From a virus, in IMG/VR virus record IMGVR_UViG_3300031962_000001, positions 1-64,000 of that record: DNA of 64,000 bases. One strand, written 5' to 3'. Below the pieces are notes generated by a model, which worked only from the letters and a program-made list of their open reading frames with translations, was not told the origin of the DNA and did no database searches. Shown here piece after piece: positions 35,459 to 63,839 of the stretch. Both the position numbers and the translations under genes were made by a program. The number at the start of each line of letters is the position of its first letter. Position 1 is the first letter of the stretch.

Positions 35459-36048
35459 TGACTAGGAAACAATTAGCAGCTTGCAGAAGAAACGCGAAAA
35501 TAGCGCACTCTCTTCCAAGAACCAAGAAACAATTAGAAGCGCTCAGGAGAAATTCTAAGATAGGCTGCGCTATGCCTAGAACTGAAAGGCAACTGAAGTC
35601 TCTAGCCAAAGCTAGAAAAGTGGGCCAGAAAGTGTTGAGCACTATGTCTAGGACTTGGTTGAAGGGAAAGAATAGGTATAAATATCCCAATAGGCTCAAA
35701 GCAGATCTCAAAAATATACAGATTGCCAACTCTCAACCTAAAACTGCAAAGCAACGTGCTACTTCTAGAGAGATGGTTAAGTATGCCCACGAAGGTTTGA
35801 AGAAGAGAAGAAAAGAGATCAATGGCATCTGTGAACTGTGCGGAGTTCCATGCTTCACTTATGGAGATCACTGTCATAAGACTGGAAAGAAGCGTGGAAA
35901 AGTCTGCCTCAGTTGCAACTTGGTTCTTGGAATGTTCAAAGACGATATAGGTCGATTCAAGAAGGCAATTAAATACCTTGAGAAATATAAAGTCTTGAGG
36001 TTTCCCAGACTGCCACAAAGATTTCCTAGATTGAAAGTGGCAGCATAG
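35455..36048 (+). CDS. endonuclease VII-like (His-Me finger) homing endonuclease
   Basis: CELCG...DHCHKTGKKRGKVCLSCNLVLGMFKDD; N-terminal repeats T(R/K/E)xQL; C-terminal RFPR x2. Confidence 0.8.
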   Translation: MMTRKQLAACRRNAKIAHSLPRTKKQLEALRRNSKIGCAMPRTERQLKSLAKARKVGQKVLSTMSRTWLKGKNRYKYPNRLKADLKNIQIANSQPKTAKQRATSREMVKYAHEGLKKRRKEINGICELCGVPCFTYGDHCHKTGKKRGKVCLSCNLVLGMFKDDIGRFKKAIKYLEKYKVLRFPRLPQRFPRLKVAA

Positions 36049-36071
36049 ATTCTATAAAAGGGAGGAGCCCA

Positions 36072-36443
36072 ATGTGGCTTTCTAACTTTGAGAACGGCAC
36101 TTCCATCTCTTCCAAAAACGTATTCTGGACACAGTTGAAGGAAAGAAGCAATGGAGCCAAGATGACCGGGCTCCAGCTCACCAGTTCTCTGTTTCCAAAT
36201 CTGTTTCTGGAACTTTCTGATCTGGACCGATACTATTTCGTGACTGAAGCCAGTGCTTTCATAGCGGAAGGAGTATTTCGCAACGAAGTGCTGGCTGAAA
36301 TCATTGGTGGACACAATCTAGAACTGGGAATCGGTATTGAAATCCGGCTAGAGTACACGGGCAGCGCGAAGTCCAGAATCTACAAGCTTGAACGTTATAA
36401 GTATTCGAAGGATATCTTGGTAGAGGGTACTAGAAGGCACTAA
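36072..36443 (+). CDS. hypothetical protein
   Basis: GGAGG RBS; TAATG coupling to the next gene. Confidence 0.6.
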   Translation: MWLSNFENGTSISSKNVFWTQLKERSNGAKMTGLQLTSSLFPNLFLELSDLDRYYFVTEASAFIAEGVFRNEVLAEIIGGHNLELGIGIEIRLEYTGSAKSRIYKLERYKYSKDILVEGTRRH

Positions 36444-39400
36444 TGCCAGCGGTATATGTCAGCTCGAATGTCAGTGGAGTTTCTGCTACTACTAGCGGAA
36501 CGCTGAACTATGGAACGCTGGCTTCTGGGCAGACCATATTTCTGCAGATAGCTGCCTACGGTTCAGGAAACGTTCCAAGCTCTGTCACGGACGATAAGGG
36601 CAATACATACGTTCAGCTCTATACGCAGAATTTCTCCACTTCTTTCCTTGGCGGTCTTGGCGGAACGATAACTCTCTACTACGCCACCGTAAAGACAGCG
36701 GGAAATACGACCGTCACTGTAAACTTCGCAAGCTCCACGACTTGGGCAATGAACGCGATCTGGTACTTGGGGTTCAACACTACTCCATTCACGTTAGAAA
36801 CTTCAGCGTCTGCTGGCGGCACTGGCACTGCACCAAATTCTGGCGCGACTCCCTCGAACGCGACAGCTGGCGATCTGCTGCTCGGTCTTGGAATGACCGA
36901 TATCGCCATAGGAAATTTCTCAAACTTCTACTCAGCTCAGGGTGCTGGTTACAGTGGTTCCTTCAGCGATTCTTCAGGAAATAACGTAAGCAGTATACAA
37001 GAATTCCAGAACGCTGCTTCCACTACGACATATTCTGCGACGGCAACTCTTCAGAGCAGCGCAAATTGGGTGATGGCAGTCGTAGCGATCAAGCAGACGG
37101 CTTCAGTGCCTACGTTTGTGAGAGGCTACGGAACAGTCCACAGTGCTGGAGCTGGTTCTTTGGGATTGACCGGCGTCACGCTGTCCGTTGGCGATCTGGG
37201 CATCGTCTGCGTGAAATGGGTTGGCACACAGACCATCAGCACGGTCGCAGACAATCTTGGTGGCAACGTTTGGATAGCTGTTCCAAATTCCTATCAGACG
37301 GGAGCTGGAAATTTCAGCAGTCAGCTTTGGTATTGCGCCAAGATAGCCACTGGTGGAACAGCCACCATCACCGTCACTTGGTCTGCTACTACAGGGAGCA
37401 TGGATATAGGTGGAGCCGAATTCACGGCTTCCACTATAGACATATCCTCGTCTTCGCAGCTTGCCTCGTCTAACAATATCACCATATCTGCGACCCCTAC
37501 GAGTGCTAGCGAAATGCTCTACGCTTTCTTCGTAGGAGGAGCTAGTACTCCTAGCATTTTAGCTTCTGGATTCACCAGTGCCGGAGCGGCTGGCAGTTTC
37601 AGCACTCAGGGATACATGGCGGCAGGACCAACTGGGATATCTTATCCTGCGACCGCCACTCAAACCGCTCCTTCTCTTTTCTTTGCTGCGATAGTCGCTT
37701 TGGGACCGTCTTCTAACAGCAAGACCTGGAATACAGATTGCTACGTCTTTCCATTCTATAATTCCAAGAATTGGAACACAGATTGCTTCGTGACCGTTCC
37801 TCAGCGAAGCTGGAACGTAGACTGTTACGTCGCTAATCCGTCTGCTATCACTGTCGCTTTGACTTACGTCAGCCTAGCTGGTCAGATCCTCTTCAAGATT
37901 AACGTTCCTAATGGCTTTATTGGGTTGAAGGGAACACTCAATCAGCCGGTCCTGACGTACGTCGGACTCGCGGCTACGATAAAGACTCAGAAGCTCCCAG
38001 CCAGTTTTACAGGTCTGGCAGGTACGATCAAGATCAAGCCTACTCCAAGCTACACAAGCTTGAAGGGCACGATCAACAATCCTACGCTCAAATCGTGGAA
38101 CTCGGACTGCTTCGTTGTCGTTCCTGCCAGAATCTATGTTTCACTGGCTGGCACCATCGTACAGAAGCTGACGCCGACTGGTCCTCCTGTTCCTACTGGA
38201 GCGTTTCCAGATTCTTCTTACGTAGGATTGAGAGCTACGATTCTGAGTGGAGGGTCTGGTTCTATCCAGATGCCGGGTTCTGGATATACGACAGCAGACG
38301 ATTGGTATTCTTCTGTAGACGCTGGCGCTTCCTACAAGTCTGGCTCTGTATTCAATCTGTCCGGTGCTAATCTTCCCGCTGGTGGAATCAATCTAGTCGT
38401 GACGGCATTCACTGGCGGAGTAACGAGCTTCCAGACTCGCACGAGAAACTGGCTGCGCAGAGTAGACGCTGCGAATAGTGGCATCGTCACCAACACTCAG
38501 ACCAATGTGCATACTCTGCCGAATGGTGCCGTCATCACTACGACTACAGTCACTACGCAGAACAAGGACGTATTGACTACGACCGTGACGACTCAGAGCA
38601 GTGCGACGCCTACCAGAACCAGCACCGTCATCACTGAGAAGAGCGTCGGTGGCCAGACTACCGTCCGTGAAATAGACACTACGACTATAAACGGCATCGT
38701 GACGAATGTAGAAAAGAAAAACGTCTTTTCGGTGCCGCCGACGTATGACAATCCACAGCCACTGAAAGTCACGACGCTGGACGGCGTAATTCATTACCAG
38801 TTTTTCTCGGCCATCAACGCTGAATGGGCTGGCGGCGAGCAGGAAGGCGTAACGAATATCCAGACTCAGGTGCAGATAGTTCCCGGCACTTTGAACAATT
38901 CTACTACGGACGCCTTCGGCAATCCTATTCTGTCCAGAGTCACGACCAGCACTGCTACGACTCCAGATGGCAAGATCATTACTACCACTACGACAGAGAC
39001 TGGCAGTTCTACGGCGAAGGACTTTGGCACTACGACCGTAGACACGATCAATCAGTTCAATGGCGTCCAGAAGACCGTCGTTACCAAGACGACATATCCT
39101 GATGGGTCTGTGGTGACTAGCAACAAGACAACCAATTTGCTTACAGGTGATAGCACAGAAACAGACACCGAAACGGTCACCGACGAATATGGGCAGGTAA
39201 CGACGACTGTCACGTCTATCGACACCAAGACATTTGCAGACCCGACCACTGGCATCGAAAGACAGACAGTTACTAAGACGGTCGCCGTCACGAAAGGCGG
39301 AGTCACTACCATAGACACTACTGTCGTTACGAACAACGATTTCGAGGACAGTATCGTCAGCCAAAAGGTCAAGGTCTACTTCATCCAAGAGTTCACTATC

Positions 39401-39739
39401 ACTTGCGTTATAGACGAGCTTAACTTGACAGCTCTGTCGGAGCTGAATGTTACGTTGCAGAAAAACTATACGCTGCTGGAACTGTTCGGCCAGCAATTAG
39501 GCAATGCACAATTGAGCTGGCCTCTGAGGAACACTCTCATCAACCAGTTCAATCTGGCGAATTCCAGCATCACGCCGTTCAAGCTTCAGGCTCTCGGCAA
39601 AGTCTACAATGTCATATTCGCGCAGTCGGCTTCGGCGTTCAGGGCGAAATATATTCCTGGCACTGAGCCTCACGTCTATGAATTGCAGATGATTCTCCAA
39701 TCCAGAAGCGACATATCTACAGGAGCGTTTGGGTTCTAG
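36443..39739 (+). CDS. multidomain tail protein (beta-sandwich domains, short repeats, Thr-rich region)
   Basis: Two N-terminal xDxxG(N/G) beta-sandwich domains; WNxDC(Y/F)V and Y/FxxLxGT(I/L) repeats; long Thr-rich segment. Confidence 0.6.
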   Translation: MPAVYVSSNVSGVSATTSGTLNYGTLASGQTIFLQIAAYGSGNVPSSVTDDKGNTYVQLYTQNFSTSFLGGLGGTITLYYATVKTAGNTTVTVNFASSTTWAMNAIWYLGFNTTPFTLETSASAGGTGTAPNSGATPSNATAGDLLLGLGMTDIAIGNFSNFYSAQGAGYSGSFSDSSGNNVSSIQEFQNAASTTTYSATATLQSSANWVMAVVAIKQTASVPTFVRGYGTVHSAGAGSLGLTGVTLSVGDLGIVCVKWVGTQTISTVADNLGGNVWIAVPNSYQTGAGNFSSQLWYCAKIATGGTATITVTWSATTGSMDIGGAEFTASTIDISSSSQLASSNNITISATPTSASEMLYAFFVGGASTPSILASGFTSAGAAGSFSTQGYMAAGPTGISYPATATQTAPSLFFAAIVALGPSSNSKTWNTDCYVFPFYNSKNWNTDCFVTVPQRSWNVDCYVANPSAITVALTYVSLAGQILFKINVPNGFIGLKGTLNQPVLTYVGLAATIKTQKLPASFTGLAGTIKIKPTPSYTSLKGTINNPTLKSWNSDCFVVVPARIYVSLAGTIVQKLTPTGPPVPTGAFPDSSYVGLRATILSGGSGSIQMPGSGYTTADDWYSSVDAGASYKSGSVFNLSGANLPAGGINLVVTAFTGGVTSFQTRTRNWLRRVDAANSGIVTNTQTNVHTLPNGAVITTTTVTTQNKDVLTTTVTTQSSATPTRTSTVITEKSVGGQTTVREIDTTTINGIVTNVEKKNVFSVPPTYDNPQPLKVTTLDGVIHYQFFSAINAEWAGGEQEGVTNIQTQVQIVPGTLNNSTTDAFGNPILSRVTTSTATTPDGKIITTTTTETGSSTAKDFGTTTVDTINQFNGVQKTVVTKTTYPDGSVVTSNKTTNLLTGDSTETDTETVTDEYGQVTTTVTSIDTKTFADPTTGIERQTVTKTVAVTKGGVTTIDTTVVTNNDFEDSIVSQKVKVYFIQEFTITCVIDELNLTALSELNVTLQKNYTLLELFGQQLGNAQLSWPLRNTLINQFNLANSSITPFKLQALGKVYNVIFAQSASAFRAKYIPGTEPHVYELQMILQSRSDISTGAFGF

Positions 39740-39740
39740 C

Positions 39741-41420: not shown

Positions 41421-41429
41421 GAGGAAGAC

Positions 41430-44072: not shown

Positions 44073-44399
44073 ATGCTAGAAAACAGGGAAGTTCCAATCA
44101 GCAAGCTGACCACTGGGCAGGACTTCACGCTCGTGCTGAACGCCACTAGCAAAAGACGCATCAAAGGCCGATTAGTAGACCTCAGCTCTTGCAGCGCCAC
44201 AGTGATTCTGGACAATACTCTCAGTGAAAAGCTTCACTGGTCTACCAACAAGAGGCTTCACTGGTCCGTGAATACTCCCGTGATTCCTGGCAATAACATC
44301 AGAAAGAGATTCCCCAGAACTCCTGAGCGGTTCCCACGATCTCCGGTTTACAGATATCCGAGACTGCGAAAAGGCGAAGTGATGAGGTATCCACGATGA
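44073..44399 (+). CDS. small beta-barrel-like protein with R(F/Y)PR x4 tail
   Basis: GGAGAGG RBS; C-terminus RKRFPRTPERFPRSPVYRYPRLRKGEVMRYPR. Confidence 0.7.
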   Translation: MLENREVPISKLTTGQDFTLVLNATSKRRIKGRLVDLSSCSATVILDNTLSEKLHWSTNKRLHWSVNTPVIPGNNIRKRFPRTPERFPRSPVYRYPRLRKGEVMRYPR

Positions 44400-46076: not shown

Positions 46077-46466
46077 ATGACAATTCAGCAGCCGGACAGG
46101 AAGACGGTATTTGACTTGGAGCAAATCATCAAAAGATGTTTTGAAGAATCTACGAAAGCTGGTGACATTCAAGTTTTGGACGAACACAATACTGAAATAG
46201 CTACGTTCGAAGTTCCAGCTTTGGAAGATAGAACCAACATAACTCTTTTGGTCAACATCGACAATGTCGCTATTCACATTTCTAGGACTATCATCGGCGA
46301 GCTTTACGAGCTGGAAGTCGTGAGGAAACTGGCCCCGTTCTTTCGGCAGTTCCGGAGCATGGAGCGAGACTTGATGTATCTTGAGGAACGCCAAGCTGCC
46401 GATACCGCAATGCTTGGACTCAGGATCACTCCTCCAGAACCTGCAAAGAAGGAGGAGAAGCCATGA
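46077..46466 (+). CDS. hypothetical protein
   Basis: AGGAGG RBS; 129 aa. Confidence 0.65.
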   Translation: MTIQQPDRKTVFDLEQIIKRCFEESTKAGDIQVLDEHNTEIATFEVPALEDRTNITLLVNIDNVAIHISRTIIGELYELEVVRKLAPFFRQFRSMERDLMYLEERQAADTAMLGLRITPPEPAKKEEKP

Positions 46467-46816: not shown

Positions 46817-47467
46817 ATGCGTCGTCGCAGAAGAAAAAAGCCGCGTCGGTTTCCTAGACTCGATGTTCCGCTAGAGCTTAGGCACTACGAAAGAATCTTG
46901 AGAAGTGTATACAACGAGTTAGCAATCAGACGCGACAAGCGGAAAATGTTTTTCCAGTTCGATGTTTACAGGACTAAGAGAGCTGGCAGAGCGGCAATCG
47001 CGTTTCTGGATTTGGCAAAGCTCCTCAAGAATCACAATATCGATCCTGGCTTGTATTTGAAAATCATGTGCAGATATGGCAAGTACAAAGAATCCACGTG
47101 GATGCCAAGTCCAGTGTGGCTTGCTAAAAAATCTACGCTGGAAAATTTCAAATGGGTCTATCGTAGGGAAGAGAGAAGTTATCCTTTGCATCTGCAATTC
47201 AAAAAGGAAATTTCTGGCTGGAGTATTTTCGACATCTACGCTTCGGTTAGAGATTCTGCAAGCATGTATCGGGACGCAGTCGAAAAAGTCGGGCTGCATC
47301 CGGACATGGCGACGGTTATGCTCAAGAAAGATCTGAGTCCATGGTTCATGGCAACGTCGCTTCTGATTTCTAAGGACAGCAAAGATTTCCTAGAATGCCT
47401 AGACCTGCTACGTAAAAACAAGAAGCTAAAAAAACTTGTGTTCAAGGCGTACAAGAAATCTTTCTAG
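46817..47467 (+). CDS. hypothetical replication-associated protein
   Basis: 216 aa, basic N-terminus with RFPR; directly upstream of the helicase. Confidence 0.6.
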   Translation: MRRRRRKKPRRFPRLDVPLELRHYERILRSVYNELAIRRDKRKMFFQFDVYRTKRAGRAAIAFLDLAKLLKNHNIDPGLYLKIMCRYGKYKESTWMPSPVWLAKKSTLENFKWVYRREERSYPLHLQFKKEISGWSIFDIYASVRDSASMYRDAVEKVGLHPDMATVMLKKDLSPWFMATSLLISKDSKDFLECLDLLRKNKKLKKLVFKAYKKSF

Positions 47468-51102: not shown

Positions 51103-52533
51103 ATGAGAACCAAAGAAGAATGGCTTGAGAACCTGATGTGCTGCGAAGGCTGCAAAGTGTTGGGCGAAGGCAAAGTCGGTTGCTTCTGGAAGAAACAGCA
51201 TTGTCCGTTGTGTGGCAAGGCTACTTCGAAATTCAAGAAGCTGAACGGCAAGAAGGGCGAGAAAATCCTTCGCTTCCCCCGCGAGGCTAGCACGGCAACG
51301 AAACAGCAAGTGGCGATCATGAAACAGATCAACGACCGCTGCCGCGACTTCGATTGCCCGGGAAAAGTGGTGGACGTTATCACTGGTCCCGTGGTTACCG
51401 AATACGTTTTCGAGCCTGACCGGTTCACCCGCGTCAAGAAGCTGAAGGGCCTGAACGAGGAACTTTCGCTGACACTGAGCAAGCCGGAACTCGGCATCGG
51501 CTCTGTGGAAACCGTCACCATCCGCCGCATCGCAGGCAGAGCAGCCATCGGCATCTCAGTGCCGAATCCAGACCGTAAGATGGTCAGCTTCAAGGATTGC
51601 CTGAAAAATGTCATCGCACATCGAGACGACATGGAATTGCCGCTCAACATGGGCGTCACTTCCACGGGCGAACCTTATGTGGAGGACCTCGCCACGATGC
51701 CGCATCTGCTTATCGGTGGTAGCACTGGCACTGGCAAGTCGGTATACCTTAATGCTTTGCTGACCAGCTTGCTCTATATCCGCTCGCCGAAGCAACTCTG
51801 GCTCTACATGATCGACCCGAAATCTGTGGAGCTCTTTCCATACAAAGGTCTGCCGCACCTCAAGCGCGACCCGGTCAACGATGTGTACGAGGCGCTCAGC
51901 GTCATGGACACGATCGAACAGGAAATGCGCCGTCGCACTAACAACCTCCACATCAACAAAGCTAAGGATATCAAGGAACTCAACACGCGCATCAAGGGCG
52001 AGGTTGCCGAGCTCAGAAAGCAAGGCAAGGAAGAGGAAGCCAAGAAGCGCGAAGCCGATCTCTGGCCCTACATTATATTGGTCATCGATGAGATGGCTGA
52101 TCTGGTGCTGGCAGAGAAGAAAATGTTCACCCAGAAGCTGGCGTGCATTTCCCAGATGGCTCGCGCCGCTGGCATCTGCATCATCAGCGCAACCCAGCGT
52201 CCGTCTGTGGACGTGCTGCCGGGAAAAATCAAGGTGAACTTCCCCGCTCGCGTCTGCTTCCGCGTGCCTAGCGCCGTGGATGGCAAGACGGTGCTGAACT
52301 ACAAGGGAGCGGAAACGCTGCTGGGCAAGGGCGACTGCTTTTTGGTGTCGCCTAACAAGGCTGGTCTCCAGCGCATCCACGTCCCCTACTGCACTCCGGC
52401 CGATCGCGACGAAATGCTGAAAATCTCGCTGGAATTCGGGCACGTCCTGAAAGTCCCGGCGGATTCTATGGAAGTCGCCGCTCCGGTCGTGGAGAAGAAA
52501 AACGGCAAGCCTGCCTCCAAGCTGGTCAACTAG
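51103..52533 (+). CDS. ftsK: FtsK/SpoIIIE-family DNA translocase motor, with N-terminal Cys cluster and no TM anchor
   Basis: GPVVT.Y, IGISVPN, PHLLIGGSTGTGKS, MIDPKSVEL, LVIDEMADL, ATQRPSVDV, GAETLLGKGD. Confidence 0.9.
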   Translation: MRTKEEWLENLMCCEGCKVLGEGKVGCFWKKQHCPLCGKATSKFKKLNGKKGEKILRFPREASTATKQQVAIMKQINDRCRDFDCPGKVVDVITGPVVTEYVFEPDRFTRVKKLKGLNEELSLTLSKPELGIGSVETVTIRRIAGRAAIGISVPNPDRKMVSFKDCLKNVIAHRDDMELPLNMGVTSTGEPYVEDLATMPHLLIGGSTGTGKSVYLNALLTSLLYIRSPKQLWLYMIDPKSVELFPYKGLPHLKRDPVNDVYEALSVMDTIEQEMRRRTNNLHINKAKDIKELNTRIKGEVAELRKQGKEEEAKKREADLWPYIILVIDEMADLVLAEKKMFTQKLACISQMARAAGICIISATQRPSVDVLPGKIKVNFPARVCFRVPSAVDGKTVLNYKGAETLLGKGDCFLVSPNKAGLQRIHVPYCTPADRDEMLKISLEFGHVLKVPADSMEVAAPVVEKKNGKPASKLVN

Positions 52534-56593: not shown

Positions 56594-57319
56594 ATGGCCA
56601 TCCACACTCCAGTAGATAGTCCCATCTTTGGAGGACGCGTCTGGGGCCAGTCCAAGGACCGCAAGGCCCAACGACTGGCCGCAGCCAGGAAGAACAAGGA
56701 GTTCCGGCAGGAGAAGGCGTATCGCACAAGATACAAGGGAGCCAAAAATGATGTAGAGGCTGCCAACCTTTTCCTGCTTCTTGGCATCAACTATTTCAGC
56801 ACGCCGAAAGAACAGCTTGCCGCTATCGTGCGCGAGAAGTTCGAAGGAAAGAGAGCCGACGCCATCAATGTCAAAGCGATGGATTTCCTGACAGACAACT
56901 TTGATGCTCTGGTGGAGCTCAAAGATGGATTTCCACCACTGATAAGGTTCCGTCCGGCAGAGCCGGAGAAGGAAGAGGAGACACGACCCATGAAACTGTA
57001 TTCCCAGCTAGCAGAACGTTCCGGTCAGACACGTAGGGTAGTCAGAGAAGTGTACGAGGCACTGGTCTTGGAGGCACGCAAGGCTCTGAGAACAGAACGC
57101 CTTTTCAAGCTGCCCGATCTAGGCAGACTGAAGATATCGTACAGACCACCGAAGGAAAAGCGGAGGGGCATCAACCCTTTCACTGGCAAGAAGCAGTGGT
57201 TCAAGTACAAACCCGCATCAAACAAACTGCGCTTCGCACCGGCGAAGGTTCTGAAAGTCTTCGTCGCCGAGAAGGTGGAGGTTGTAGCACCGAAGAAAAA
57301 GAAAAAGCACAAGAAGTAG
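56594..57319 (+). CDS. HU/IHF-like DNA-binding protein with N-terminal extension
   Basis: C-terminal ~110 aa LAERSG...LPDLGRLKISYRP...GINPFTG...KPASNKLRFAPAKVLK; internal GAGGAG + ATG 56990. Confidence 0.8.
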   Translation: MAIHTPVDSPIFGGRVWGQSKDRKAQRLAAARKNKEFRQEKAYRTRYKGAKNDVEAANLFLLLGINYFSTPKEQLAAIVREKFEGKRADAINVKAMDFLTDNFDALVELKDGFPPLIRFRPAEPEKEEETRPMKLYSQLAERSGQTRRVVREVYEALVLEARKALRTERLFKLPDLGRLKISYRPPKEKRRGINPFTGKKQWFKYKPASNKLRFAPAKVLKVFVAEKVEVVAPKKKKKHKK

Positions 57320-57332
57320 AAGGGAGGTTTGG

Positions 57333-58061
57333 ATGTCCTATTGTAGGCAGTGTGCAAATCCAGATCTGAAGGGTATGCACACTTGTGAAAAAAGAAGAAA
57401 GAGAGGCACGATGGAACCGCAAGTACAGGTGATCACGAGAGAAGCACGCAAAGCACTGATCCAAGAATTGCCGCGAGCGGTGCCGGAGTTCGAAGAGCCG
57501 ACGCCGGAGTCTGAGAAGATAGCGAAGAAGGCCAGCAGAGTCCTTGGCTACCGAGGCTTGCTGACTTTCAACGCTGGAGGCAAACTCCAAGCCATTCTGG
57601 AGAGCCTTGAAATCGAAGTCATCGACCCGAAGGCTGTGTTCGAATATCAGTCCAAATTCGGGAGAGCGACCTACAATAAACCAGTCATCTTCGTAGAAGA
57701 GGCTATTCAAGACGATGATGAAGATGACGAAGAAGAGGAAGATGATGACGACGAGGAGCCGGTCCGTAGCAGTCATGGACGGTACTTTTGGAATCGAGTT
57801 CCGATCAAAGAGTACCATAAGGCTATCCCAGAGTTCGTAGTTAGCAAGGCTATCCAAGTCAAGGAAGCCCTGCCAGAAGTGCAGGTCTTCGTTGAGGAAC
57901 TGCAATACGACCCTGACCCGTTCTTGGTTGTGACCTGCAAGAACGACAATTTCATTGAGCAGTATTACATCGAAGTCTGGGAGGAGCCTCAGTTCGAAGG
58001 GCGATTCCTGGGCCAGCCGACCAAGCAAGAGCGCAATCTGTCGAAGAAGCACAAAGGCTGA
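57333..58061 (+). CDS. hypothetical protein with acidic tract
   Basis: GGGAGG RBS; IPEFV..KA, DPDPFLVV, YIEVWEEP blocks. Confidence 0.65.
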   Translation: MSYCRQCANPDLKGMHTCEKRRKRGTMEPQVQVITREARKALIQELPRAVPEFEEPTPESEKIAKKASRVLGYRGLLTFNAGGKLQAILESLEIEVIDPKAVFEYQSKFGRATYNKPVIFVEEAIQDDDEDDEEEEDDDDEEPVRSSHGRYFWNRVPIKEYHKAIPEFVVSKAIQVKEALPEVQVFVEELQYDPDPFLVVTCKNDNFIEQYYIEVWEEPQFEGRFLGQPTKQERNLSKKHKG

Positions 58062-58122
58062 AATTGTTCCAGACTGGAGCTCACTTGGCGCGGTAGAGGA
58101 AGGCTCCAGTCTGGGCAATAGG

Positions 58123-58164
58123 GCGGGAGTAGAAGGTATGCGGCCCCCTGCTCCCGCTCATTTT
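58123..58164 (+). terminator. terminator-like hairpin
   Basis: GCGGGAGTAG...CTGCTCCCGC followed by TCATTTT. Confidence 0.5.
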
Positions 58165-58173
58165 ATCTCACAA

Positions 58174-58185
58174 TCGTGTTTCATA
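58174..58185 (+). promoter_or_regulatory. TCGTGTTTCATA motif, copy 3
   Basis: Follows a terminator-like hairpin and precedes an AAGGAGG RBS. Confidence 0.6.
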
Positions 58186-58203
58186 TAGGTAAGGAGGAAG
58201 AAA

Positions 58204-58443
58204 ATGGAGCTATCCGTAGGAGATGTGAAAACCATGTTCGTAGATCGTTGGAGGTCCACTCTGAAAGGAGCAAACGAGCAGACCGAAAATGTTTTGCTCC
58301 ACGAAGTTTCTGATGAACATAAGCAGAATCTTCGGGAGATCGTGATTCTTCAGAAAGAGGCTCTACTAAGACTCCAGATGCTGGAAACCGCTCTTGGGAA
58401 TTTTGGAGAAGCGATTTCAGGGCTGATGGAACTTACCGAATAG
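58204..58443 (+). CDS. hypothetical protein
   Basis: AAGGAGG RBS; 79 aa. Confidence 0.65.
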   Translation: MELSVGDVKTMFVDRWRSTLKGANEQTENVLLHEVSDEHKQNLREIVILQKEALLRLQMLETALGNFGEAISGLMELTE

Positions 58444-58451
58444 GAGCTAGC

Positions 58452-59306
58452 GTGGACCCACAATACGGCAAGATGAACATAATCCCCGGCATCACCGTCG
58501 TGGTGGATACTGTAACTGGCAGGTCTGCAAGAGTCGAGAAGATTCTGCCGAGCGGCGTCCAAGTAACTGTTAGGCAGCGAGGATACGAGCTAGAAAATTG
58601 GCAATGGAGTTGGCTTACAGTCCGTCAGCCGCGTCTAGTCAAACGCTATCCACGCCCGTTCCGATTCCCAAGGGAGGAAAAGACCGAATGCTGCCATTGT
58701 AAAATTGGTAAGATGGAGGCGCAACTTGAAAAAACGAAAGTCGAAGAAGGCTGGATCGAAACATGGATCGTCTGGTGTCTCAGATGCAAGCAACCAATCG
58801 GTACGGAAAGTTTTCCTAGACGTATCGAGAGAGCCTACGAGCTTGTACGCAAAGCTCGTAATGCAAAACCCAAACGCGAAGTTCATAAAGCAGTATCGCG
58901 ACGAGCAAGGAAAGTTTCACGTCATCACAAAAGTTCCGTCAAAGCACGGAGAAAGAGTACGAGTAAACTGGGTATTCGACCCACAAGGAGCAGCAATGCG
59001 CAAGCGAGCAATCGAAAGACAGTCAGGAAGGCCAAGCTCAAAACATCTAAGGTTCCCGCGAGAAGCCGTCAAAAGATTTCCACGGCTCGCCATCAGGAGG
59101 TTTCCAAGACTCGCCAAAAAGGGGTGAAACGTGTACGACATAGCGCGAGCCCTGAAAAAGTTCCGACAACTGATAAGGTGGACATCGTGGCGAGCGTCCC
59201 GCAACCCGATACTCCGGCAGACGTTCGAGGATCTGGAAGCGGAGGGGCTTCTAACGCTAGTGAAGTGTTGTCGGGAGTTCCCGGAGGGACAGACAAGGTT
59301 CACTAG
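58452..59306 (+). CDS. SH3-like + R(F/Y)PR + Zn-ribbon protein; C-terminal half overlaps two downstream genes
   Basis: AGGAG RBS; RYPRPFRFPR; CCHC...CLRC. Coding status beyond ~58860 is uncertain. Confidence 0.45.
   Translation: MDPQYGKMNIIPGITVVVDTVTGRSARVEKILPSGVQVTVRQRGYELENWQWSWLTVRQPRLVKRYPRPFRFPREEKTECCHCKIGKMEAQLEKTKVEEGWIETWIVWCLRCKQPIGTESFPRRIERAYELVRKARNAKPKREVHKAVSRRARKVSRHHKSSVKARRKSTSKLGIRPTRSSNAQASNRKTVRKAKLKTSKVPARSRQKISTARHQEVSKTRQKGVKRVRHSASPEKVPTTDKVDIVASVPQPDTPADVRGSGSGGASNASEVLSGVPGGTDKVH
58861..59127 (+). CDS. small protein with RFPR x3 C-terminal tail
   Basis: ATG 58861 (MQNPNAKFIKQYRD); ends HLRFPREAVKRFPRLAIRRFPRLAKKG. Confidence 0.6.
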   Translation: MQNPNAKFIKQYRDEQGKFHVITKVPSKHGERVRVNWVFDPQGAAMRKRAIERQSGRPSSKHLRFPREAVKRFPRLAIRRFPRLAKKG

Positions 59307-59727
59307 ATATTTCAAACGCTCTTGGTACAATCACCTGAAAAGATTGTACCGAGATGGCTATGCTCTGAAACGACGCGGCATTGAAGTCGAGCTAGAAAAA
59401 GCCGAAAGCATAGCGCCTGCCGAGGACGATTTCCTAGAACGGATGCAATCTCGCTATGACGAGATACAACCATTCCTTTCACAAGACGCCAGACGGCTTC
59501 TGGAGAGCTTGCTGTCTACAGAGCCGGAACCTATGGCAATAGAATATGCGTGGCGAGAGTTCTGTCGCAAGAGCAAACTACGCTCGCTAGAAATTCCAGT
59601 AACAGGTGGAAAAAAGTTCCGTGTTCGTATTCGCCACGTCCGACGTGCGCTGGGCTTGACGACCAAACGGATGCGCGAAGTAGTCAAGGAAATAAAGTCT
59701 GTAAGCAGATCACACAGGAGGAAGTAG
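59131..59727 (+). CDS. sigma70-family (region 2-like) phage sigma/transcription factor
   Basis: EDLEAEGLLTLVKCCREF....RFTRYFKRSWYNHLKRLYR resembles sigma region 2; C-terminal HTH-like IRHVRRALGLTTKRMREV. Confidence 0.65.
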   Translation: MYDIARALKKFRQLIRWTSWRASRNPILRQTFEDLEAEGLLTLVKCCREFPEGQTRFTRYFKRSWYNHLKRLYRDGYALKRRGIEVELEKAESIAPAEDDFLERMQSRYDEIQPFLSQDARRLLESLLSTEPEPMAIEYAWREFCRKSKLRSLEIPVTGGKKFRVRIRHVRRALGLTTKRMREVVKEIKSVSRSHRRK

Positions 59728-61077
59728 ATGGCTAAGAAGAAAACAGGCAAGAAAAAGAGCAGAAAGGGCAAGAAGGGCAAGTCGCGTGACGAGGAAGAAG
59801 ATGAGGACGAAGAGGAGGTAGACGAGTCAGACGAGGAAGAGTCTGACGATGAGGAAGAGGACGACGAAGACGACAAGCCATCCAAAAAGAAGAAGCACAA
59901 AAAGTCCTCTGACGAAGATGAAGAGGACGAAGAAGAGTCTGAGGATGAGGAAGAGTCCAGCGACGATGAGGAAGAGGACTCTGACGACGATGAGGAAGAA
60001 GACGAGGACGAGGAACCTAAGAAAAAGAAGAAACACAAAAAGTCCTCTGACGAAGATGAAGATGAAGATGAAGAGGACGAAGAAGAGTCCGATGACGAGG
60101 AAGATGAAGACGAGGATGACGAGCCCAAGAAGAAAAAGAAAAAGGGCAAGAAATCCTCAGACGACGATGACGACGAGGAAGACGAAGACGAGTCCGAGGA
60201 CGAGGAAGATGAGGAAGAGTCCGAGGACGACGATGACGATGATGATGACGAACCTCCCAAGAAAAAGAAAAAGTCCAAGAAGTCAGAAGATGACGACGAG
60301 GACGAGGAAGAGGAGGAAGACGAGGACGAGGAAGAGTCTGACGATGATGATGATGAGGAAGAGGATGACGATGAGGAGGACTCCGCAAAGGGGTCCTCTT
60401 CCAAGCTCGTCCAGATCGATCCAAATAAGTATCAGCCCAAACAACCAAAAACCCCGATCCCTCCGGGCATAGAAGATTGCTTCGGCAAGTATTATGGGCC
60501 TCTGTCGGGAGAACCTGACGCCCCAGAGTGCAAGCGTTGCGTCGAAGCGAAGAACTGTGCGGCTGTAATGAAAGCCAACAGAGAAGACGAAGAAAAGGAA
60601 GGTAAAAAGAAGATGAAAAAGCACGGGAAGAAGCGGCACGCAAGAGAGGAAGAGGAAGAAGAGGTGAAGGTGTCCAAGAAAAAGAAGGGCAAGAAGCACC
60701 GTCGCGAGGAAGAAGAGGAAGAGGAAGAAAAGAAGTCCTCGAAGAAGGTGAAGGGCCTTGCTCCGGCTGTCAAGTCGATCTTGGACAAGTCCAAATACAA
60801 GAAGTACGATGGCGATCTGGTCAAGAGCGCGGAGAACAAGTACGTCGTCAAAATTCACGATGTGAAAGCTGTCCGTATCACACGGGCGAATCGCGAAGAT
60901 GGTGCTCAGTTCCGTCTGCTTTGCAAAAAGGAGCCGAAGAAATATGGACTGCGCTCTAGCGACTGGAAGAAGGCTGGCGCCGGTAAGTACGACTTCCAGG
61001 GAGAGCAGAAGGCTCTTCCGAAGAAGCTGCGTATTTTCTTCAAGAAGTTTGCGGCCGAGCACAAGGAAGCAGCGTAG
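59728..61077 (+). CDS. acidic/basic low-complexity protein with Cys motif
   Basis: AGGAGG RBS; repeated poly-E/D tracts separated by PKKKKK blocks; CFG...CKRC...C; followed by a terminator. Confidence 0.75.
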   Translation: MAKKKTGKKKSRKGKKGKSRDEEEDEDEEEVDESDEEESDDEEEDDEDDKPSKKKKHKKSSDEDEEDEEESEDEEESSDDEEEDSDDDEEEDEDEEPKKKKKHKKSSDEDEDEDEEDEEESDDEEDEDEDDEPKKKKKKGKKSSDDDDDEEDEDESEDEEDEEESEDDDDDDDDEPPKKKKKSKKSEDDDEDEEEEEDEDEEESDDDDDEEEDDDEEDSAKGSSSKLVQIDPNKYQPKQPKTPIPPGIEDCFGKYYGPLSGEPDAPECKRCVEAKNCAAVMKANREDEEKEGKKKMKKHGKKRHAREEEEEEVKVSKKKKGKKHRREEEEEEEEKKSSKKVKGLAPAVKSILDKSKYKKYDGDLVKSAENKYVVKIHDVKAVRITRANREDGAQFRLLCKKEPKKYGLRSSDWKKAGAGKYDFQGEQKALPKKLRIFFKKFAAEHKEAA

Positions 61078-61100
61078 CAGTTCCACAACAACTCTAACTG

Positions 61101-61135
61101 GAGGGGCCTTTCACCGTGAGGCCCCTCTTTCTTTT
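61101..61135 (+). terminator. rho-independent terminator
   Basis: GAGGGGCCT / AGGCCCCTC stem + TTTCTTTT. Confidence 0.8.
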
Positions 61136-61143
61136 GAGGCGAA

Positions 61144-62451
61144 ATGAAAAAGATAGCAGTGGTGATGTTCGACGCTGGGCACATAGGAGGAGTTCTGCCA
61201 TACAATCTGGATCTGACCTATGGTCTGAGAGAAGCTGGCTACGAAGCAGACCTGATATTCGCTGTTCCCAAGGAGCAGCCTGACAAGGCGCATGGAGCAA
61301 AGGCTGGTTTGGGGCTGCGCATACATATATCGAAGTCTGGAGGAAGGCTGTTCTCAGAAAATGCTATCCCGTATATCGGGAAGAAAAATTCTGGTGAGCT
61401 CAAGGAAAAGCTCCAAGAATACGACGGCGTAGTCCTGTCCAAGGTTCCCAGTTGGAAAAGAGGTCACAACGATGACCAGGATTGGTTGAAGGCTTTACAG
61501 CATGGCAAGCCTATGGTGTGTATCGTGCATGACACGCTATGGCTGCGTTCCTACCCGTGGATACTTTCGCTGCGGGACAAAATCACATACTATGTCGCTG
61601 TACATCCGGCGGCATTTTCAATGGCGAAGCTGATTCCTGGTAGAATTTGCTGTATCGTGAATCCATTTGACATTTCTAAGTCTCAGAAGACCTACGAAAA
61701 GGACTGGAACGCGCTGGCTTCTACAGCGTTCTTCAGACAGTGGAAACATAACGAGGATGGCATTAGGGCAGTCCCATACATGAAACCTGTCCATCTCTTT
61801 CAGACTGGAGCAGGTATAGAACTGAGCTATATGAGGGCCGAACTGAAAAGCAAAGATAAATACAGTGGTAGTTCCTACGCTAACTATCGCAAGAAGATAA
61901 TGCAGTATCGTTGGAAGAAAAGCGACTACTCTTACAGAGAGAAGTGGGATGGTAAGAGAATATTCGATGTCGCAAAGAAGACTGGGCGATTCCATTATAT
62001 GGGTGTCGTGCCTCCAGAGGAACTGTACAATCTCAAAGCTGGATGCGGTGGCTCTGTAGATTGGTCCTATCATTCGTGGGGAGAATATTTCAACAGAGTT
62101 ACAGTAGAGGCTATGATCTACCACTGTTTGCCATTTGCCAGACCGACAGGTATAGCAGGCAACGAAACGGGGGAAGGGCTGGTCTTTGGACCTGAAAATG
62201 TAGTCCTTATCAGAGAAGGCTTGTCTCCAAAGAAAACTGGCGAGTTGATCGTAAGCTCTATGCATGACAAGGCGCTTAGGAAGGAAATGATTACTAGGAA
62301 TCTGAAGAAGATCGAGATGTTTGACAGGAAAGTGGTGGCGGAACAGATTGTGAGAGCTTTGAAAGGGAAGGAAAAAGTTGGACTGCTGGAGACGATGACG
62401 GGAAAATCTAATAAAAAAGTCAGAAGCTATATGGAGGACTTCGGAGAATGA
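61144..62451 (+). CDS. GT-B glycosyltransferase, T4 alpha-glucosyltransferase-like (DNA modification)
   Basis: MKKIAVV..GGV, EYDGVVLSKVP, CIVHD, FRQWK, NRVTVEAM. Confidence 0.6.
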   Translation: MKKIAVVMFDAGHIGGVLPYNLDLTYGLREAGYEADLIFAVPKEQPDKAHGAKAGLGLRIHISKSGGRLFSENAIPYIGKKNSGELKEKLQEYDGVVLSKVPSWKRGHNDDQDWLKALQHGKPMVCIVHDTLWLRSYPWILSLRDKITYYVAVHPAAFSMAKLIPGRICCIVNPFDISKSQKTYEKDWNALASTAFFRQWKHNEDGIRAVPYMKPVHLFQTGAGIELSYMRAELKSKDKYSGSSYANYRKKIMQYRWKKSDYSYREKWDGKRIFDVAKKTGRFHYMGVVPPEELYNLKAGCGGSVDWSYHSWGEYFNRVTVEAMIYHCLPFARPTGIAGNETGEGLVFGPENVVLIREGLSPKKTGELIVSSMHDKALRKEMITRNLKKIEMFDRKVVAEQIVRALKGKEKVGLLETMTGKSNKKVRSYMEDFGE

Positions 62452-63839
62452 AAAGAATCGCCGTCCTCCTGTTCGAAGTGTTCAACAACCTCGGCGGCAT
62501 CCTACCGTCTACATACCATACCTGCAAAGGTCTGGAAGAGGCAGGTTACGAACCGTTCATATTCCATGCGGAATGGAAAGACCGGAAATACGACCGGCCA
62601 GAAGGCAGCTATAAAAACGTGGGGTTTGGACTACGCACTAGCACGAGCAAGGGACTAGAGCGTATACGCATGTTTGCCAGCCCTAAGCATACTTTCCTGT
62701 ACCGTGGGCGATCGTGCGCCAGGGACCTCCGGGACGCCCTTAGCGAGTATGATGGCGTTATACTTAGCAGTTCCATACCGTCTATTGCGGCAAAGAAGAT
62801 GGGTGGCAACAACGACTGGAAAATAGTGCTTCAGCACGGCAAGCCGATGATAGGCATGGTGAGAGACTGTCACTGGAGCCGTCTGTCGCCACACATATTT
62901 CCATACAGACATCTGTTTCAGGCTTTCGTGGGAGTACACCCAGCCGCGTTCAACTCGCTGAAAAACATGCCATGGAAAATTGCCTGTCAGCCGAATCCGC
63001 ATGACACTTCCCTGTATGGTAGGGAATACGAAAAGAACTGGGAGGAAGTCTGCATCACGTCGTGGTTCAAACAGTGGAAGCATATCGACGATGCTCTCAG
63101 AGCAGTACCGTATATGAAGCCAATCCGTTTGCGGATAGCTGGTGGTGGCATCGAGCATTCCTATATGGAAGCTGCTAAGAAGAATCCAGATAGGCCGCGT
63201 GAGGATTTCAACTTGGAATCGACGTACCGTTCTTGGCAAAACAAAATGAGATTCTATTCGTGGAAGGAAAACGACAAGAGCGTCAGGGACAAGTGGATTG
63301 GTAAAAGTATCTGGGAAGTAGCGGAGCGCTCCGGAAATTTTACGTACGAAGGATTCCTGTTGCAAGGCAGACAGCTTGACGATCTTCAATCGGAATGTGG
63401 AGGCCTGTTTGATCCTTCCTACCATTACGACTGGGGAGAGCATTTCAATCGCACGATGATAGAGGCCATCCTGCATCATAGCATTCCGTTCATGAGGCCA
63501 TATGGCATCTCAGACAACGCGGAAGGCCAAGGCAAGATATTTGGACCTGACAATGCTGTCATGATTCCTGAGACGGCTTCTCCAAAAAGGATAGGCGAGA
63601 TAATCCGCTCGTCGATGAACGATAGAAAACTTAAGAGAGACCTGAAGGCGGCGAACGCTGAGAAGGTTCAAATGTTCAACAGGACGTATGTGGCTAGACA
63701 GTATATAAAATTATTGGAGGGAAAGGAGGCAGGTCTGTTCGGCATACAGGAGGGAAAGCTCGATGAGAAGACACTGTTCAGGCTGAATAAGCTAGGTCTC
63801 ATCAGGAGGTTCCCCAGAACATTCAGATTCCCGAGGTGA
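62448..63839 (+). CDS. GT-B glycosyltransferase paralog (AGT-like) with RFPR x2 C-terminus
   Basis: Co-linear with the upstream gene (EYDGVIL, LQHGKPM, VHPAAF, AVPYMKP, WGE.FNR..IEA, FGP.N); ends RRFPRTFRFPR. Confidence 0.6.
   Translation: MKRIAVLLFEVFNNLGGILPSTYHTCKGLEEAGYEPFIFHAEWKDRKYDRPEGSYKNVGFGLRTSTSKGLERIRMFASPKHTFLYRGRSCARDLRDALSEYDGVILSSSIPSIAAKKMGGNNDWKIVLQHGKPMIGMVRDCHWSRLSPHIFPYRHLFQAFVGVHPAAFNSLKNMPWKIACQPNPHDTSLYGREYEKNWEEVCITSWFKQWKHIDDALRAVPYMKPIRLRIAGGGIEHSYMEAAKKNPDRPREDFNLESTYRSWQNKMRFYSWKENDKSVRDKWIGKSIWEVAERSGNFTYEGFLLQGRQLDDLQSECGGLFDPSYHYDWGEHFNRTMIEAILHHSIPFMRPYGISDNAEGQGKIFGPDNAVMIPETASPKRIGEIIRSSMNDRKLKRDLKAANAEKVQMFNRTYVARQYIKLLEGKEAGLFGIQEGKLDEKTLFRLNKLGLIRRFPRTFRFPR

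What the first reader, a model, noticed from the sequence alone, without database searches (positions are those of the whole stretch)
35998..63839. A shared R-[F/Y]-P-R peptide tag on seven unrelated non-virion proteins
Seen: the motif occurs 15 times (12 RFPR, 3 RYPR). Locations: EndoVII-like nuclease C-terminus x2 (35998-36030); ORF 44073 tail x4; ORF 46817 N-terminus (46847); FtsK N-terminus (51271); ORF 58452 x2 (58644-58673); ORF 58861 tail x3 (59050-59109); and the extreme C-terminus of the second AGT-like glycosyltransferase x2 (63807-63836), but not its paralog. The codons differ from copy to copy (e.g. AGG-TTT-CCC-AGA, CGC-TTC-CCC-CGC, CGG-TTC-CCA-CGA, AGA-TTT-CCA-CGG), so this is not a DNA repeat. 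Copies sit in termini or linkers, often in tandem at ~6-8 residue spacing. I saw none in capsid, tail or glycan-island proteins, and a rough composition estimate expects under one chance copy in the window. Inference: a phage-wide short linear docking/address motif that recruits DNA-acting proteins to one hub or compartment, or marks them for modification or proteolysis. Tandem copies suggest avidity. The polyacidic protein at 59728 is one candidate partner. I do not recognise this as a described system.
Basis: partly seen in the sequence, partly recalled or inferred. Interest (0 to 1): 0.9.

Follow-up and report, generated by a model that had tools for sequence, protein, structure and literature searches.

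The report
Shared RFPR docking tag in phages
This uncultured ~100-kb phage and its relatives attach the same tiny peptide (Arg-Phe-Pro-Arg) to the floppy ends of many unrelated proteins that work on the phage's DNA. It behaves like a common address label, but what reads it is still unknown.

Summary
The whole 92.9-kb record has 23 in-frame copies on 13 proteins, against 0.4 expected, and RFPR is the most over-represented tetrapeptide in the proteome. All DNA variation among copies is synonymous, so selection acts on the peptide.

The tag is clade-wide: nine related IMG/VR contigs show about 20-70-fold enrichment. It is kept at orthologous termini of RecA (9/9 here, and nearly all of about 49 database clusters), small terminase (6/6) and FtsK-like translocase (5/5). 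It comes and goes on the 5-hmdU DNA kinase and the portal.

The real motif is [IVP]-x-R-[FYW]-P-R. Lys never replaces Arg. Clients are proteins that act on phage DNA: hypermodification enzymes, recombinase, resolvases, translocase, terminase and portal. Replisome and capsid/tail proteins lack it.

I read it as a docking motif for one common receptor on the phage chromosome, probably a protein. Direct DNA binding is the main rival.

The same tag was already noted by this scan in four other genomes of the clade. I found no paper describing it.

The parts
35455..36048 (+). Endonuclease VII-like nuclease. Two RFPR copies in its C-terminal tail (35998-36009, 36019-36030).
   Evidence: Pfam Endonuclease_7 E=2.3e-13. 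Motif positions.
44073..44399 (+). 108-aa beta-rich protein. Its last 30 residues hold four copies (RFPR 44307, 44328; RYPR 44352, 44385), the last being the C-terminus itself.
   Evidence: Relatives in G4 and G5 carry tags on both ends of the same small domain. No Pfam or PHROG hit.
46817..47467 (+). 216-aa protein of unknown family just upstream of the DnaB-like helicase. N-terminal tag at 46847-46858, after a run of basic residues.
   Evidence: The tag is kept in all 3 orthologs. DnaB_C on the next gene.
51103..52533 (+). FtsK/SpoIIIE-like DNA translocase. One tag (51271-51282) in the linker between an N-terminal Cys4 segment and the FtsK alpha domain.
   Evidence: Pfam FtsK_SpoIIIE 1.7e-44 and FtsK_alpha 2.1e-13. 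Tag present in 5/5 orthologs as RFPRE[LA].
58452..58860 (+). Conserved part (~135 aa) of ORF 58452: Tudor/SH3-like beta-barrel, then a linker with three R-x-P-R units (RQPR 58623, RYPR 58644, RFPR 58662), then a Cys4 zinc ribbon.
   Evidence: The linker is nearly invariant in 21 homologs. AF2 model has mean pLDDT 86, with the linker residues 61-70 at about 50. Weak fold matches to Tudor/PWWP/KOW/SH3-like barrels.
58861..59127 (+). ORF in the +1 frame relative to ORF 58452. Its C-terminal tail has three RFPR copies (59050, 59074, 59098). It may be fused to ORF 58452 by a +1 frameshift.
   Evidence: Its product is conserved in G2, G4 and G6 in the alternate frame. There is no ATG at the junction in G4 or G6, and CCC-A sits at the frame switch.
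62448..63839 (+). Two RFPR copies at the extreme C-terminus (63807-63836).
   Evidence: The ortholog in G2 keeps one copy. No Pfam, PHROG or PDB match.
61144..62451 (+). Untagged paralog of the previous protein (43% identity). It ends where the tag-bearing extension of its paralog begins.
59728..61077 (+). Polyacidic protein (40% D/E), with D/E blocks alternating with PKKKKKHKK blocks, then a conserved Cys4 segment and a basic C-terminal domain.
   Evidence: Conserved in G1, G2, G4 and G6.
56594..57319 (+). Untagged HU-family DNA-binding protein with an extra ~125-aa N-terminal domain. It is a candidate chromosome-bound adaptor; this role is inferred, not shown.
   Evidence: Pfam Bac_DNA_binding 1.8e-11 at residues 134-221. 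Conserved in G2, G4 and G6.
47383..47394 (+). RFPR in a frame with no called ORF, inside the 3' end of ORF 46817. Probably chance.
59427..59438 (+). RFPR out of frame inside the sigma-like gene 59131-59727. Probably chance.

Best explanation
[IVP]-x-R-[FYW]-P-R is a short linear docking motif private to one clade of ~100-kb phages with hypermodified thymidine.

Shown:
- The peptide, not the DNA, is under selection.
- It sits in unstructured N-termini, C-termini or inter-domain linkers, often in tandem 6-8 residues apart.
- It is kept at the same spot in orthologs while its flanks drift.
- It is added to or lost from individual proteins.
- Its carriers act on phage DNA. They are thymidine-hypermodification enzymes, RecA, Holliday-junction and PDDEXK nucleases, an FtsK-like translocase, HNH endonucleases, a zinc-ribbon protein next to a sigma-like gene, the small terminase and the portal.

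Inferred:
- All copies plug into one shaped pocket, with two Arg-specific acidic sites and hydrophobic sites for the aromatic residue, Pro and position -2.
- The pocket belongs to a common receptor that sits on the phage chromosome, so clients are concentrated on phage DNA. Tandem copies and oligomeric clients would add avidity.
- I think the receptor is a protein, most likely phage-encoded. It would play the role that the gp45 clamp or gp32 tail plays in T4, in a phage where I found no clamp gene.

Its identity is unresolved.
For: - Enrichment: 20-23 observed against 0.4 expected, with a shuffle maximum of 4.
- Codons: 73 distinct 12-mers among 90 copies.
- Clade-wide: all 10 sequences scanned (G0 plus nine relatives) are about 20-70-fold enriched, on the coding strand.
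- Orthologous conservation: RecA 9/9, TerS 6/6, FtsK 5/5, ORF58452 5/5, metallopeptidase 7/8, portal 5/6, 5-hmdU kinase 4/6. RecA N-termini of about 46 of 49 database clusters (44-100% identity) start with the tag.
- Appendage behaviour is visible in alignments.
- Pocket-like specificity: RFPR 82 against 1.2 expected; RYPR about 8-fold (8 against 1.0 expected); RFPK 1 against 1.35 expected, and KFPR not among the seven most enriched first-position variants. Position -2 is I/V/P in 66 of 90. Glu is tolerated at +1 (17 of 90), and 28 of 90 downstream flanks are net negative.
- Position: 63 of 90 copies lie within 30 residues of a terminus.
- Disorder: tag segments have low AF2 confidence (pLDDT about 50 in the ORF58452 linker, 59 at the RecA N-terminus).
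- Client identities.
- Replisome, SbcCD and virion proteins other than the portal are untagged.
- No gp45-like or beta-clamp domain in G000 or in three relatives.
- A tandem-tag DNA scan of IMG/VR found real coding tags only in clade members, which fits a phage-encoded rather than a widespread host receptor.
- Precedent from established knowledge: T4 gp45-binding tails on gp43, gp33 and gp55; SSB and gp32 acidic tails.
Against: - No receptor was identified.
- All clients already bind DNA, so DNA itself could be the common 'receptor'.
- Flanks are on average basic (+1.4 upstream), as in DNA-binding tails.
- The records are 62-72% complete, so a clamp or other hub could lie in missing sequence.
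- Homologs of the receptor cannot be profiled, because every clade genome I could fetch has the tag.
- The IMG/VR tandem-tag scan used a restricted pattern and has low sensitivity.
Confidence: 0.5

Rival explanations
1. The tag is a direct nucleic-acid hook. The two arginines contact phosphates or the minor groove, and the aromatic-Pro pair wedges or stacks. The idea is comparable to the AT-hook (R-G-R-P), the SPKK turn, or the R-N-P-[KQ] tip of HU/IHF arms. It would give each enzyme extra affinity, or one-dimensional sliding, on phage dsDNA, possibly favouring the hypermodified bases.
For: - Every annotated client acts on DNA, including enzymes that modify thymidine within the DNA polymer (5-hmdU DNA kinase, aa:DNA transferase, radical SAM), the small terminase N-terminus and the portal C-terminal region.
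- Tandem arrays with short spacers and mostly basic flanks: the 20-mer net charge is +4 or more in 45 of 90.
- Strict Arg with no Lys is also a feature of AT-hooks (plus established knowledge).
- No protein reader was found.
- The phage encodes the first steps of hmU-based DNA modification.
Against: - Only two positive charges per unit.
- Glu at +1 in 17 of 90, net-negative downstream flanks in 28 of 90, and copies ending in a free carboxylate are unfavourable next to a phosphate backbone.
- A conserved hydrophobic residue at -2 and a bulky aromatic in place of the AT-hook glycine are not expected for minor-groove insertion.
- The modification enzymes meet DNA in different chemical states, so one modification-specific reader would not serve all of them.
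Confidence: 0.27
2. The tags are multivalent Arg/aromatic 'stickers' that partition clients into a charge-driven condensate. The scaffold would be the polyacidic protein (59728-61077), much as nucleophosmin's acidic tracts bind R-rich motifs of nucleolar proteins.
For: - The polyacidic protein is conserved in the clade and lies among tagged genes.
- Tandem tags, and small proteins tagged at both ends that could act as cross-linkers.
- Its K-blocks match the tail of the HU-family protein.
Against: - Charge-driven binding should tolerate Lys and loose spacing. Here RFPK is at background (1 observed, 1.35 expected), KFPR is not among the enriched variants, and Phe, Pro and position -2 are fixed.
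- The acidic blocks contain no hydrophobic residues that could read them.
- In G4 and G6 the acidic region is much less acidic (23-25% D/E, Ser-rich), yet the tag is unchanged.
Confidence: 0.1
3. The motif is a recognition site for covalent processing of a regulon of phage proteins: cleavage after F-P-R, Arg modification, or a degron for an AAA+ protease.
For: - F-P-R resembles preferred sites of some Arg-specific proteases (established knowledge).
- A tagged phage metallopeptidase is encoded.
- Terminal location is typical of degrons.
Against: - Several copies are the last four residues of the protein, where cleavage after Arg is meaningless.
- Internal copies sit in linkers of FtsK, ORF58452 and the portal, where cleavage would sever essential domains.
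- Tandem copies are unnecessary for a cleavage site.
- No Arg-modifying enzyme was recognised in the scans done.
Confidence: 0.06
4. Chance, or a DNA-level repeat that happens to translate to RFPR.
For: Two out-of-frame hits exist in the window (47383, 59427). Elsewhere in IMG/VR, DNA tandem repeats can translate to RFPR.
Against: - About 50-fold excess over shuffles.
- All variation is synonymous: 73 different 12-mers of 90.
- Strand- and frame-specific, and conserved at orthologous protein termini across 44-100% identity.
Confidence: 0.01

Closest known systems
T4/RB69 sliding-clamp (gp45) binding tails on gp43, gp33 and gp55; bacterial beta-clamp motif QL[SD]LF; PIP box
   Same: A short peptide on disordered termini of many unrelated DNA-handling proteins. 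It is portable, sometimes duplicated, and couples replication, transcription and repair factors to one DNA-bound hub. A small protein with a tagged tail sits next to a sigma-like gene, as gp33 does with gp55.
   Different: The sequence is unrelated (basic R-F-P-R against hydrophobic/acidic motifs). No clamp domain was found in four genomes of the clade. The polymerase, helicase and primase, the classic clamp or SSB clients, are untagged, while the terminase, portal and DNA-modification enzymes are tagged.
AT-hook (core R-G-R-P) and HU/IHF arm tip (R-N-P-K/Q)
   Same: A four-residue Arg/Pro core, strictly Arg, in disordered basic regions. It occurs in tandem and is scattered over unrelated DNA-acting proteins.
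   Different: An aromatic residue replaces Gly or Asn. The residue order differs. Acidic residues are tolerated directly after the motif. There is a conserved hydrophobic residue at -2.
Acidic C-terminal tails of E. coli SSB, T4 gp32 and T7 gp2.5/gp4 as hubs
   Same: One hub and many clients in DNA metabolism. This phage has a gp32-like SSB with an acidic tail next to a UvsY-like protein and the tagged RecA.
   Different: The polarity is reversed: here the clients carry the disordered tag. Clients include dsDNA enzymes and packaging proteins that SSB hubs are not known to recruit.
Nucleophosmin acidic tracts binding multivalent R-rich linear motifs
   Same: Arg-containing short motifs, multivalency and a conserved polyacidic protein in the same genome.
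   Different: RFPR is far stricter than R-motifs: no Lys, and fixed Phe and Pro. No evidence for condensates.
Other lineage-private 'docking tags' noted earlier by this scan in unrelated phages (e1-5944507, e1-5707943, e1-5496075, e1-173140)
   Same: The same pattern: a short peptide on the loose ends of DNA/RNA enzymes and not on most virion proteins.
   Different: Different peptides in different phage lineages. Those notes are unchecked AI notes, not publications.

Membership tests
Sliding-clamp client motifs (PIP box, QL[SD]LF, T4 gp45-binding tails) | Matches the clamp-binding consensus (Q-x-x-[LIM]-x-x-[FY][FY], QL[SD]LF, or the hydrophobic/acidic T4 tail) | tested here: not met
   The motif is [IVP]-x-R-[FYW]-P-R, with no resemblance to these consensus sequences as I recall them.
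Sliding-clamp client motifs (PIP box, QL[SD]LF, T4 gp45-binding tails) | A clamp is encoded by the phage or demonstrably used | tested here: not met
   No PF09116 (gp45) or PF00712 (beta clamp) match in G000, G004, G005 or G006. The records are 62-72% complete and the host is unknown, so absence is not proven.
Sliding-clamp client motifs (PIP box, QL[SD]LF, T4 gp45-binding tails) | The replicative polymerase is a client | tested here: not met
   The UDG-PolA fusion is untagged in 8 of 8 orthologs.
AT-hook | Core R-G-R-P (Gly essential), flanked by basic residues | tested here: not met
   Phe, Tyr or Trp occupy the position after the first Arg. No glycine variant appears among the most enriched second-position variants. 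Glu is at +1 in 17 of 90.
AT-hook | Binds the minor groove of DNA | not testable with these tools
   No tool here models peptide-DNA binding.
SH3 / proline-rich ligand (PxxP) | Two prolines in a PxxP core with a flanking Arg/Lys | tested here: not met
   There is a single invariant Pro. A second Pro at -2 occurs in only 20 of 90 copies.
T4-type capsid targeting sequence | N-terminal only, on proteins packaged in the head and cut by the prohead protease | tested here: not met
   Copies are N-terminal, C-terminal and internal. Clients are replication, recombination and modification enzymes.
Generic short linear docking motif (SLiM) | 3-10 residues in a disordered region, conserved while the flanks drift, evolutionarily gained and lost, present on unrelated proteins | tested here: met
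Generic short linear docking motif (SLiM) | A defined binding partner | tested here: inconclusive
   No partner was identified. Monomer models leave the tags undocked.

The most novel reading that the evidence does not exclude
RFPR is a minimal peptide 'reader' of the phage's own hypermodified-thymidine DNA. The arginines would sit on the backbone and the aromatic-Pro pair would stack on the base modification. Every tagged enzyme (modification writers, recombinase, resolvase, terminase, portal) could then tell phage DNA from host DNA without any adaptor protein.
Probability: 0.1. Interest if true: 0.9.

Novelty: new variant of a known kind. Interest (0 to 1): 0.72.

Why it matters
A four-to-six-residue label shared by 20 or more protein families defines a functional 'regulon' of proteins in an uncultured phage clade with no experiment yet. 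It predicts that one receptor organises DNA hypermodification, recombination, late transcription and packaging on the phage chromosome, in a phage where I found no sliding clamp.

Finding that receptor would give three things:
- a new hub of phage DNA metabolism, or a new kind of DNA-binding peptide;
- a handle for assigning function to the many unknown tagged proteins;
- a compact, portable tag for tethering proteins to that hub.

Together with other lineage-private tags seen by this scan, it suggests that SLiM-based client recruitment is a general but undescribed feature of large phages.

Tried and rejected
1. Complex prediction. A 37-residue four-tag tail (ORF44073 residues 72-108) was tested against three candidates together: the Tudor/SH3-like domain of ORF58452, the HU-family fusion and the C-terminal half of the polyacidic protein. 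Score 0.00, verdict 'no answer'. This is neither evidence for nor against binding.
2. AF2 monomers of ORF58452 (1-137) and of RecA, to see whether the tag folds back on its own protein. The tags stayed at low confidence and undocked.
3. Hypothesis that RFPR is a RecA polymerisation/BRC-like FxxA motif: no support from the RecA model.
4. Looking for a tag-less clade member to compare gene content.
5. Sister clades with another tag. PolA, TerL, RecA, portal and kinase queries in IMG/VR returned clade members plus only distant RecA or 5-hmdU-kinase relatives (26-41% identity), none a usable sister clade.
6. Host hints. GTDB genomes returned only ordinary bacterial RecAs. No tRNA genes. No megablast match in GenBank phages.
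7. Homology between the ORF44073-type and ORF58452 beta domains: hhalign probability 6%.
8. Small acidic conserved protein 46077-46466 as a possible 'socket': nothing from the ESM Atlas.
9. Pfam/PHROG scans of small conserved unknown proteins: nothing peptide-binding.
10. Literature: 'RFPR' plus phage, and SLiM plus bacteriophage searches gave nothing relevant. One search was malformed.
11. 'AGT-like' identity of the tagged 463-aa protein: not confirmed.

Full report
**Observation**

There are 15 in-frame copies of R[FY]PR (12 RFPR, 3 RYPR) on seven ORFs between 35998 and 63836. Two more + strand hits (47383, 59427) lie in no called frame, and the - strand has only two.

The window is bases 1-64000 of a 92,914-bp IMG/VR virus record that CheckV rates 68% complete. 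The rest of the record adds copies at:
- the C-terminus of a 5-hmdU DNA kinase (64189-65142);
- the N-terminus of RecA (71355-72473; the true start gives M-P-L-RFPR);
- both ends of a small ORF (73369-73638);
- the C-terminus of a phage metallopeptidase (73642-74124);
- the N-terminus of a small-terminase-like HTH protein (80681-81391, two copies);
- near the C-terminus of the portal (85806-88457).

In total there are 23 in-frame copies on 13 proteins.

Composition predicts 0.40. In 2000 within-protein shuffles the mean was 0.39 and the maximum 4. RFPR is the most over-represented tetrapeptide in the proteome (79-fold).

**It is a peptide, not a DNA repeat**

Among 90 copies from the clade there are 73 different 12-mers. 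All six Arg codons, both Phe codons and all four Pro codons are used. Hits are strand- and frame-specific.

**Clade-wide conservation**

Protein-guided scans of IMG/VR found relatives, and I fetched five of them whole. All 10 sequences scanned (G0 plus nine relatives, 9-104 kb, ortholog identity about 40-65%) carry the motif at about 20-70 times expectation.

Clustering the proteins shows the tag at the same terminus of orthologs:

| Protein | Orthologs tagged |
|---|---|
| RecA | 9/9 |
| Small terminase | 6/6 |
| FtsK-like translocase | 5/5 |
| ORF58452 | 5/5 |
| ORF46817 | 3/3 |
| Metallopeptidase | 7/8 |
| Portal | 5/6 |
| 5-hmdU DNA kinase | 4/6 |

- In the 5.8-billion-protein database, the phage RecA forms a distinct group of 49 clusters (44-100% identity) separated by a large gap from bacterial RecA. 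Nearly all start with M-x(0-8)-[IVPL]-x-RFPR. One uses RWPR, and two lack the N-terminus.
- Alignments show the tag as an appendage beyond the conserved domain. Its flanks drift and its copy number varies.
- In 21 homologs of ORF58452, the linker R-x-P-R...K-R-Y-P-R-P-F-R-[FW]-P-R is almost invariant.
- Other phage loci fetched for comparison have 0-2 six-frame hits per 12-21 kb.
- A tandem-tag DNA pattern scan of IMG/VR found genuine coding tags only in clade members.

**Anatomy of the motif**

- The four core residues are essentially fixed. RFPR occurs 82 times against 1.2 expected. RYPR is about 8-fold enriched, and RWPR occurs in the ORF58452 family.
- Lys-for-Arg variants are not enriched: RFPK occurs once against 1.35 expected, and KFPR is not among the seven most enriched first-position variants.
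- Position -2 is Ile, Val or Pro in 66 of 90 copies. Position +1 is Leu (23), Glu (17), Thr (9) or Tyr (6).
- Upstream flanks are basic (mean +1.4). Downstream flanks are mixed, and 28 of 90 are net negative.
- 63 of 90 copies lie within 30 residues of a terminus. Several are the last four residues of the protein.
- Tandem copies are mostly 6-8 residues apart, start to start.
- AF2 models place the tags in low-confidence coil. In ORF58452, residues 61-70 have pLDDT about 50, between a confident barrel and a zinc ribbon. In RecA, residues 1-10 have pLDDT 59.

**Who carries it**

In G000 the carriers are:
- EndoVII;
- an FtsK/SpoIIIE translocase;
- RecA;
- the helical subunit of 5-hmdU DNA kinase;
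- a phage metallopeptidase;
- a small-terminase-like HTH protein;
- the portal;
- a Tudor/SH3-like plus zinc-ribbon protein next to a sigma-like gene;
- one of two paralogous 435/463-aa proteins in the modification cluster;
- several small unknown proteins.

Relatives add the P-loop 5-hmdU kinase, an amino-acid:DNA transferase (PF18724), a radical-SAM enzyme, a PIG-L-like protein, HNH-AP2 and PDDEXK nucleases, and a SAP-domain protein.

The following are untagged in all genomes:
- the UDG-PolA polymerase;
- the DnaB-like helicase and the primase;
- a ResIII helicase;
- a gp32-like SSB (weak but consistent PDB hits to gp32);
- a UvsY-like protein;
- the 5'-3' exonuclease and SbcCD;
- the thymidylate-synthase-like hydroxymethylase;
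- two sigma-like proteins and a Mor-like protein;
- the large terminase;
- an HU-family fusion;
- the polyacidic protein;
- all capsid, tail and 'glycan island' ORFs.

So the tag marks proteins that process the phage chromosome (modification, recombination, resolution, translocation, packaging), not the fork machinery.

**Mechanism**

The data establish a selected, portable, disordered short linear motif. What reads it is inferred.

I favour a shaped pocket on a single receptor protein associated with phage DNA (about 0.5), for these reasons:
- The motif is Arg-specific.
- It fixes an aromatic residue, a proline and a hydrophobic residue at -2.
- It tolerates acidic neighbours and a free C-terminal carboxylate.
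- It appears private to the clade.

Functionally this would be a clamp-less analogue of the T4 gp45 or gp32 hubs. No gp45-like or beta-clamp domain is detectable in four genomes of the clade.

Plausible but untested candidates:
- the HU-family fusion 56594-57319. From my own knowledge, SPO1 TF1 is an HU-family protein that prefers hmU DNA;
- the Tudor/SH3-like barrel of ORF58452;
- the gp32-like SSB;
- the conserved C-terminal part of the polyacidic protein.

The main rival (about 0.27) is direct DNA binding in the manner of an AT-hook or HU arm tip. It explains the client list equally well, but it fits the acidic flanks and the -2 hydrophobic residue less well. Cleavage or degron readings are disfavoured by copies at the extreme C-terminus and in essential linkers.

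None succeeded; they are listed under Tried and rejected. That blocked the most promising comparison, a clade RecA that starts without the tag (P0047).

**Relation to earlier work**

- Four earlier entries of this scan (e1-6052005, e1-6052013, e1-6052027, e1-5354193) describe the same RFPR tag in other genomes of this clade, with the same open question. My independent tests agree with them.
- Other entries describe different lineage-private tags in unrelated phages. One (e1-5707943) points to a small acidic phage protein as the socket. I could not test that lead here beyond looking at the small acidic conserved protein 46077-46466.
- Full-text searches found no paper on this motif.
- I therefore class it as a new variant of a known kind: SLiM-mediated client recruitment in DNA metabolism, with a new motif, an unusual client set and an unknown receptor.

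Noticed in passing
window 58452-59306 (junction near 58857-58875): Protein conservation of ORF 58452 stops at about residue 135 and continues in the +1 frame as the ORF 58861 product, which is conserved in G2, G4 and G6 (and, by eye, G1). That frame has an ATG only in G0. The junction carries CCC-A (CCC AAA in G0, CCC AGA in G4 and G6). The upstream frame nevertheless stays open as a K/R-rich tail in all 21 homologs. This is a candidate programmed +1 frameshift or dual-coding region.
   Followed up: partly
G000 81324-85270 (L010 1324-5270): The large terminase looks split. An ATPase-like ORF (81324-82568, 61-65% identical in relatives) and a nuclease-like ORF with a DDTxDA motif (84599-85270) are separated in every relative by a variable ORF of 180-752 aa.
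   Followed up: no
window 56594-57319 and 59728-61077: The HU-family fusion ends in P-K-K-K-K-K-H-K-K. The same lysine block alternates with D/E blocks in the polyacidic protein. That protein may act as a chaperone or partner for the phage's basic DNA-binding proteins.
   Followed up: no
G000 64189-66249; relatives L042 8889-12019: Thymidine-hypermodification gene set: a dUMP-hydroxymethylase-like thymidylate synthase and 5-hmdU DNA kinase. Relatives also have a P-loop HMUD1 kinase, an amino-acid:DNA transferase and a radical-SAM enzyme. The phage DNA is therefore probably hypermodified at thymidine.
   Followed up: partly
G000 69803-72473 (L009 5803-8473): T4-like recombination cassette in the order UvsY-like, gp32-like SSB (zinc-finger-like Cys motif, acidic C-terminal tail), RecA/UvsX-like.
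   Followed up: partly
relatives G4 11580-11831, G5 79793-80131; G000 73369-73638: Several very small proteins (83-112 aa) carry tags on both their N- and C-termini, up to four copies. They could bridge two receptor molecules or compete with clients.
   Followed up: no
window 47383-47394 and 59427-59438: Two RFPR-encoding 12-mers in frames with no ORF. They are not conserved at these places in relatives as far as I checked, and are probably chance.
   Followed up: partly
relatives G6, G5, G4, G7 portal genes: Portal proteins of relatives are 1261-1332 aa, with the tag at about residues 1170-1270. The G000 portal ORF is 883 aa, followed by short ORFs that cluster with the portal group. The G000 portal C-terminal extension may be split or frameshifted.
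   Followed up: no
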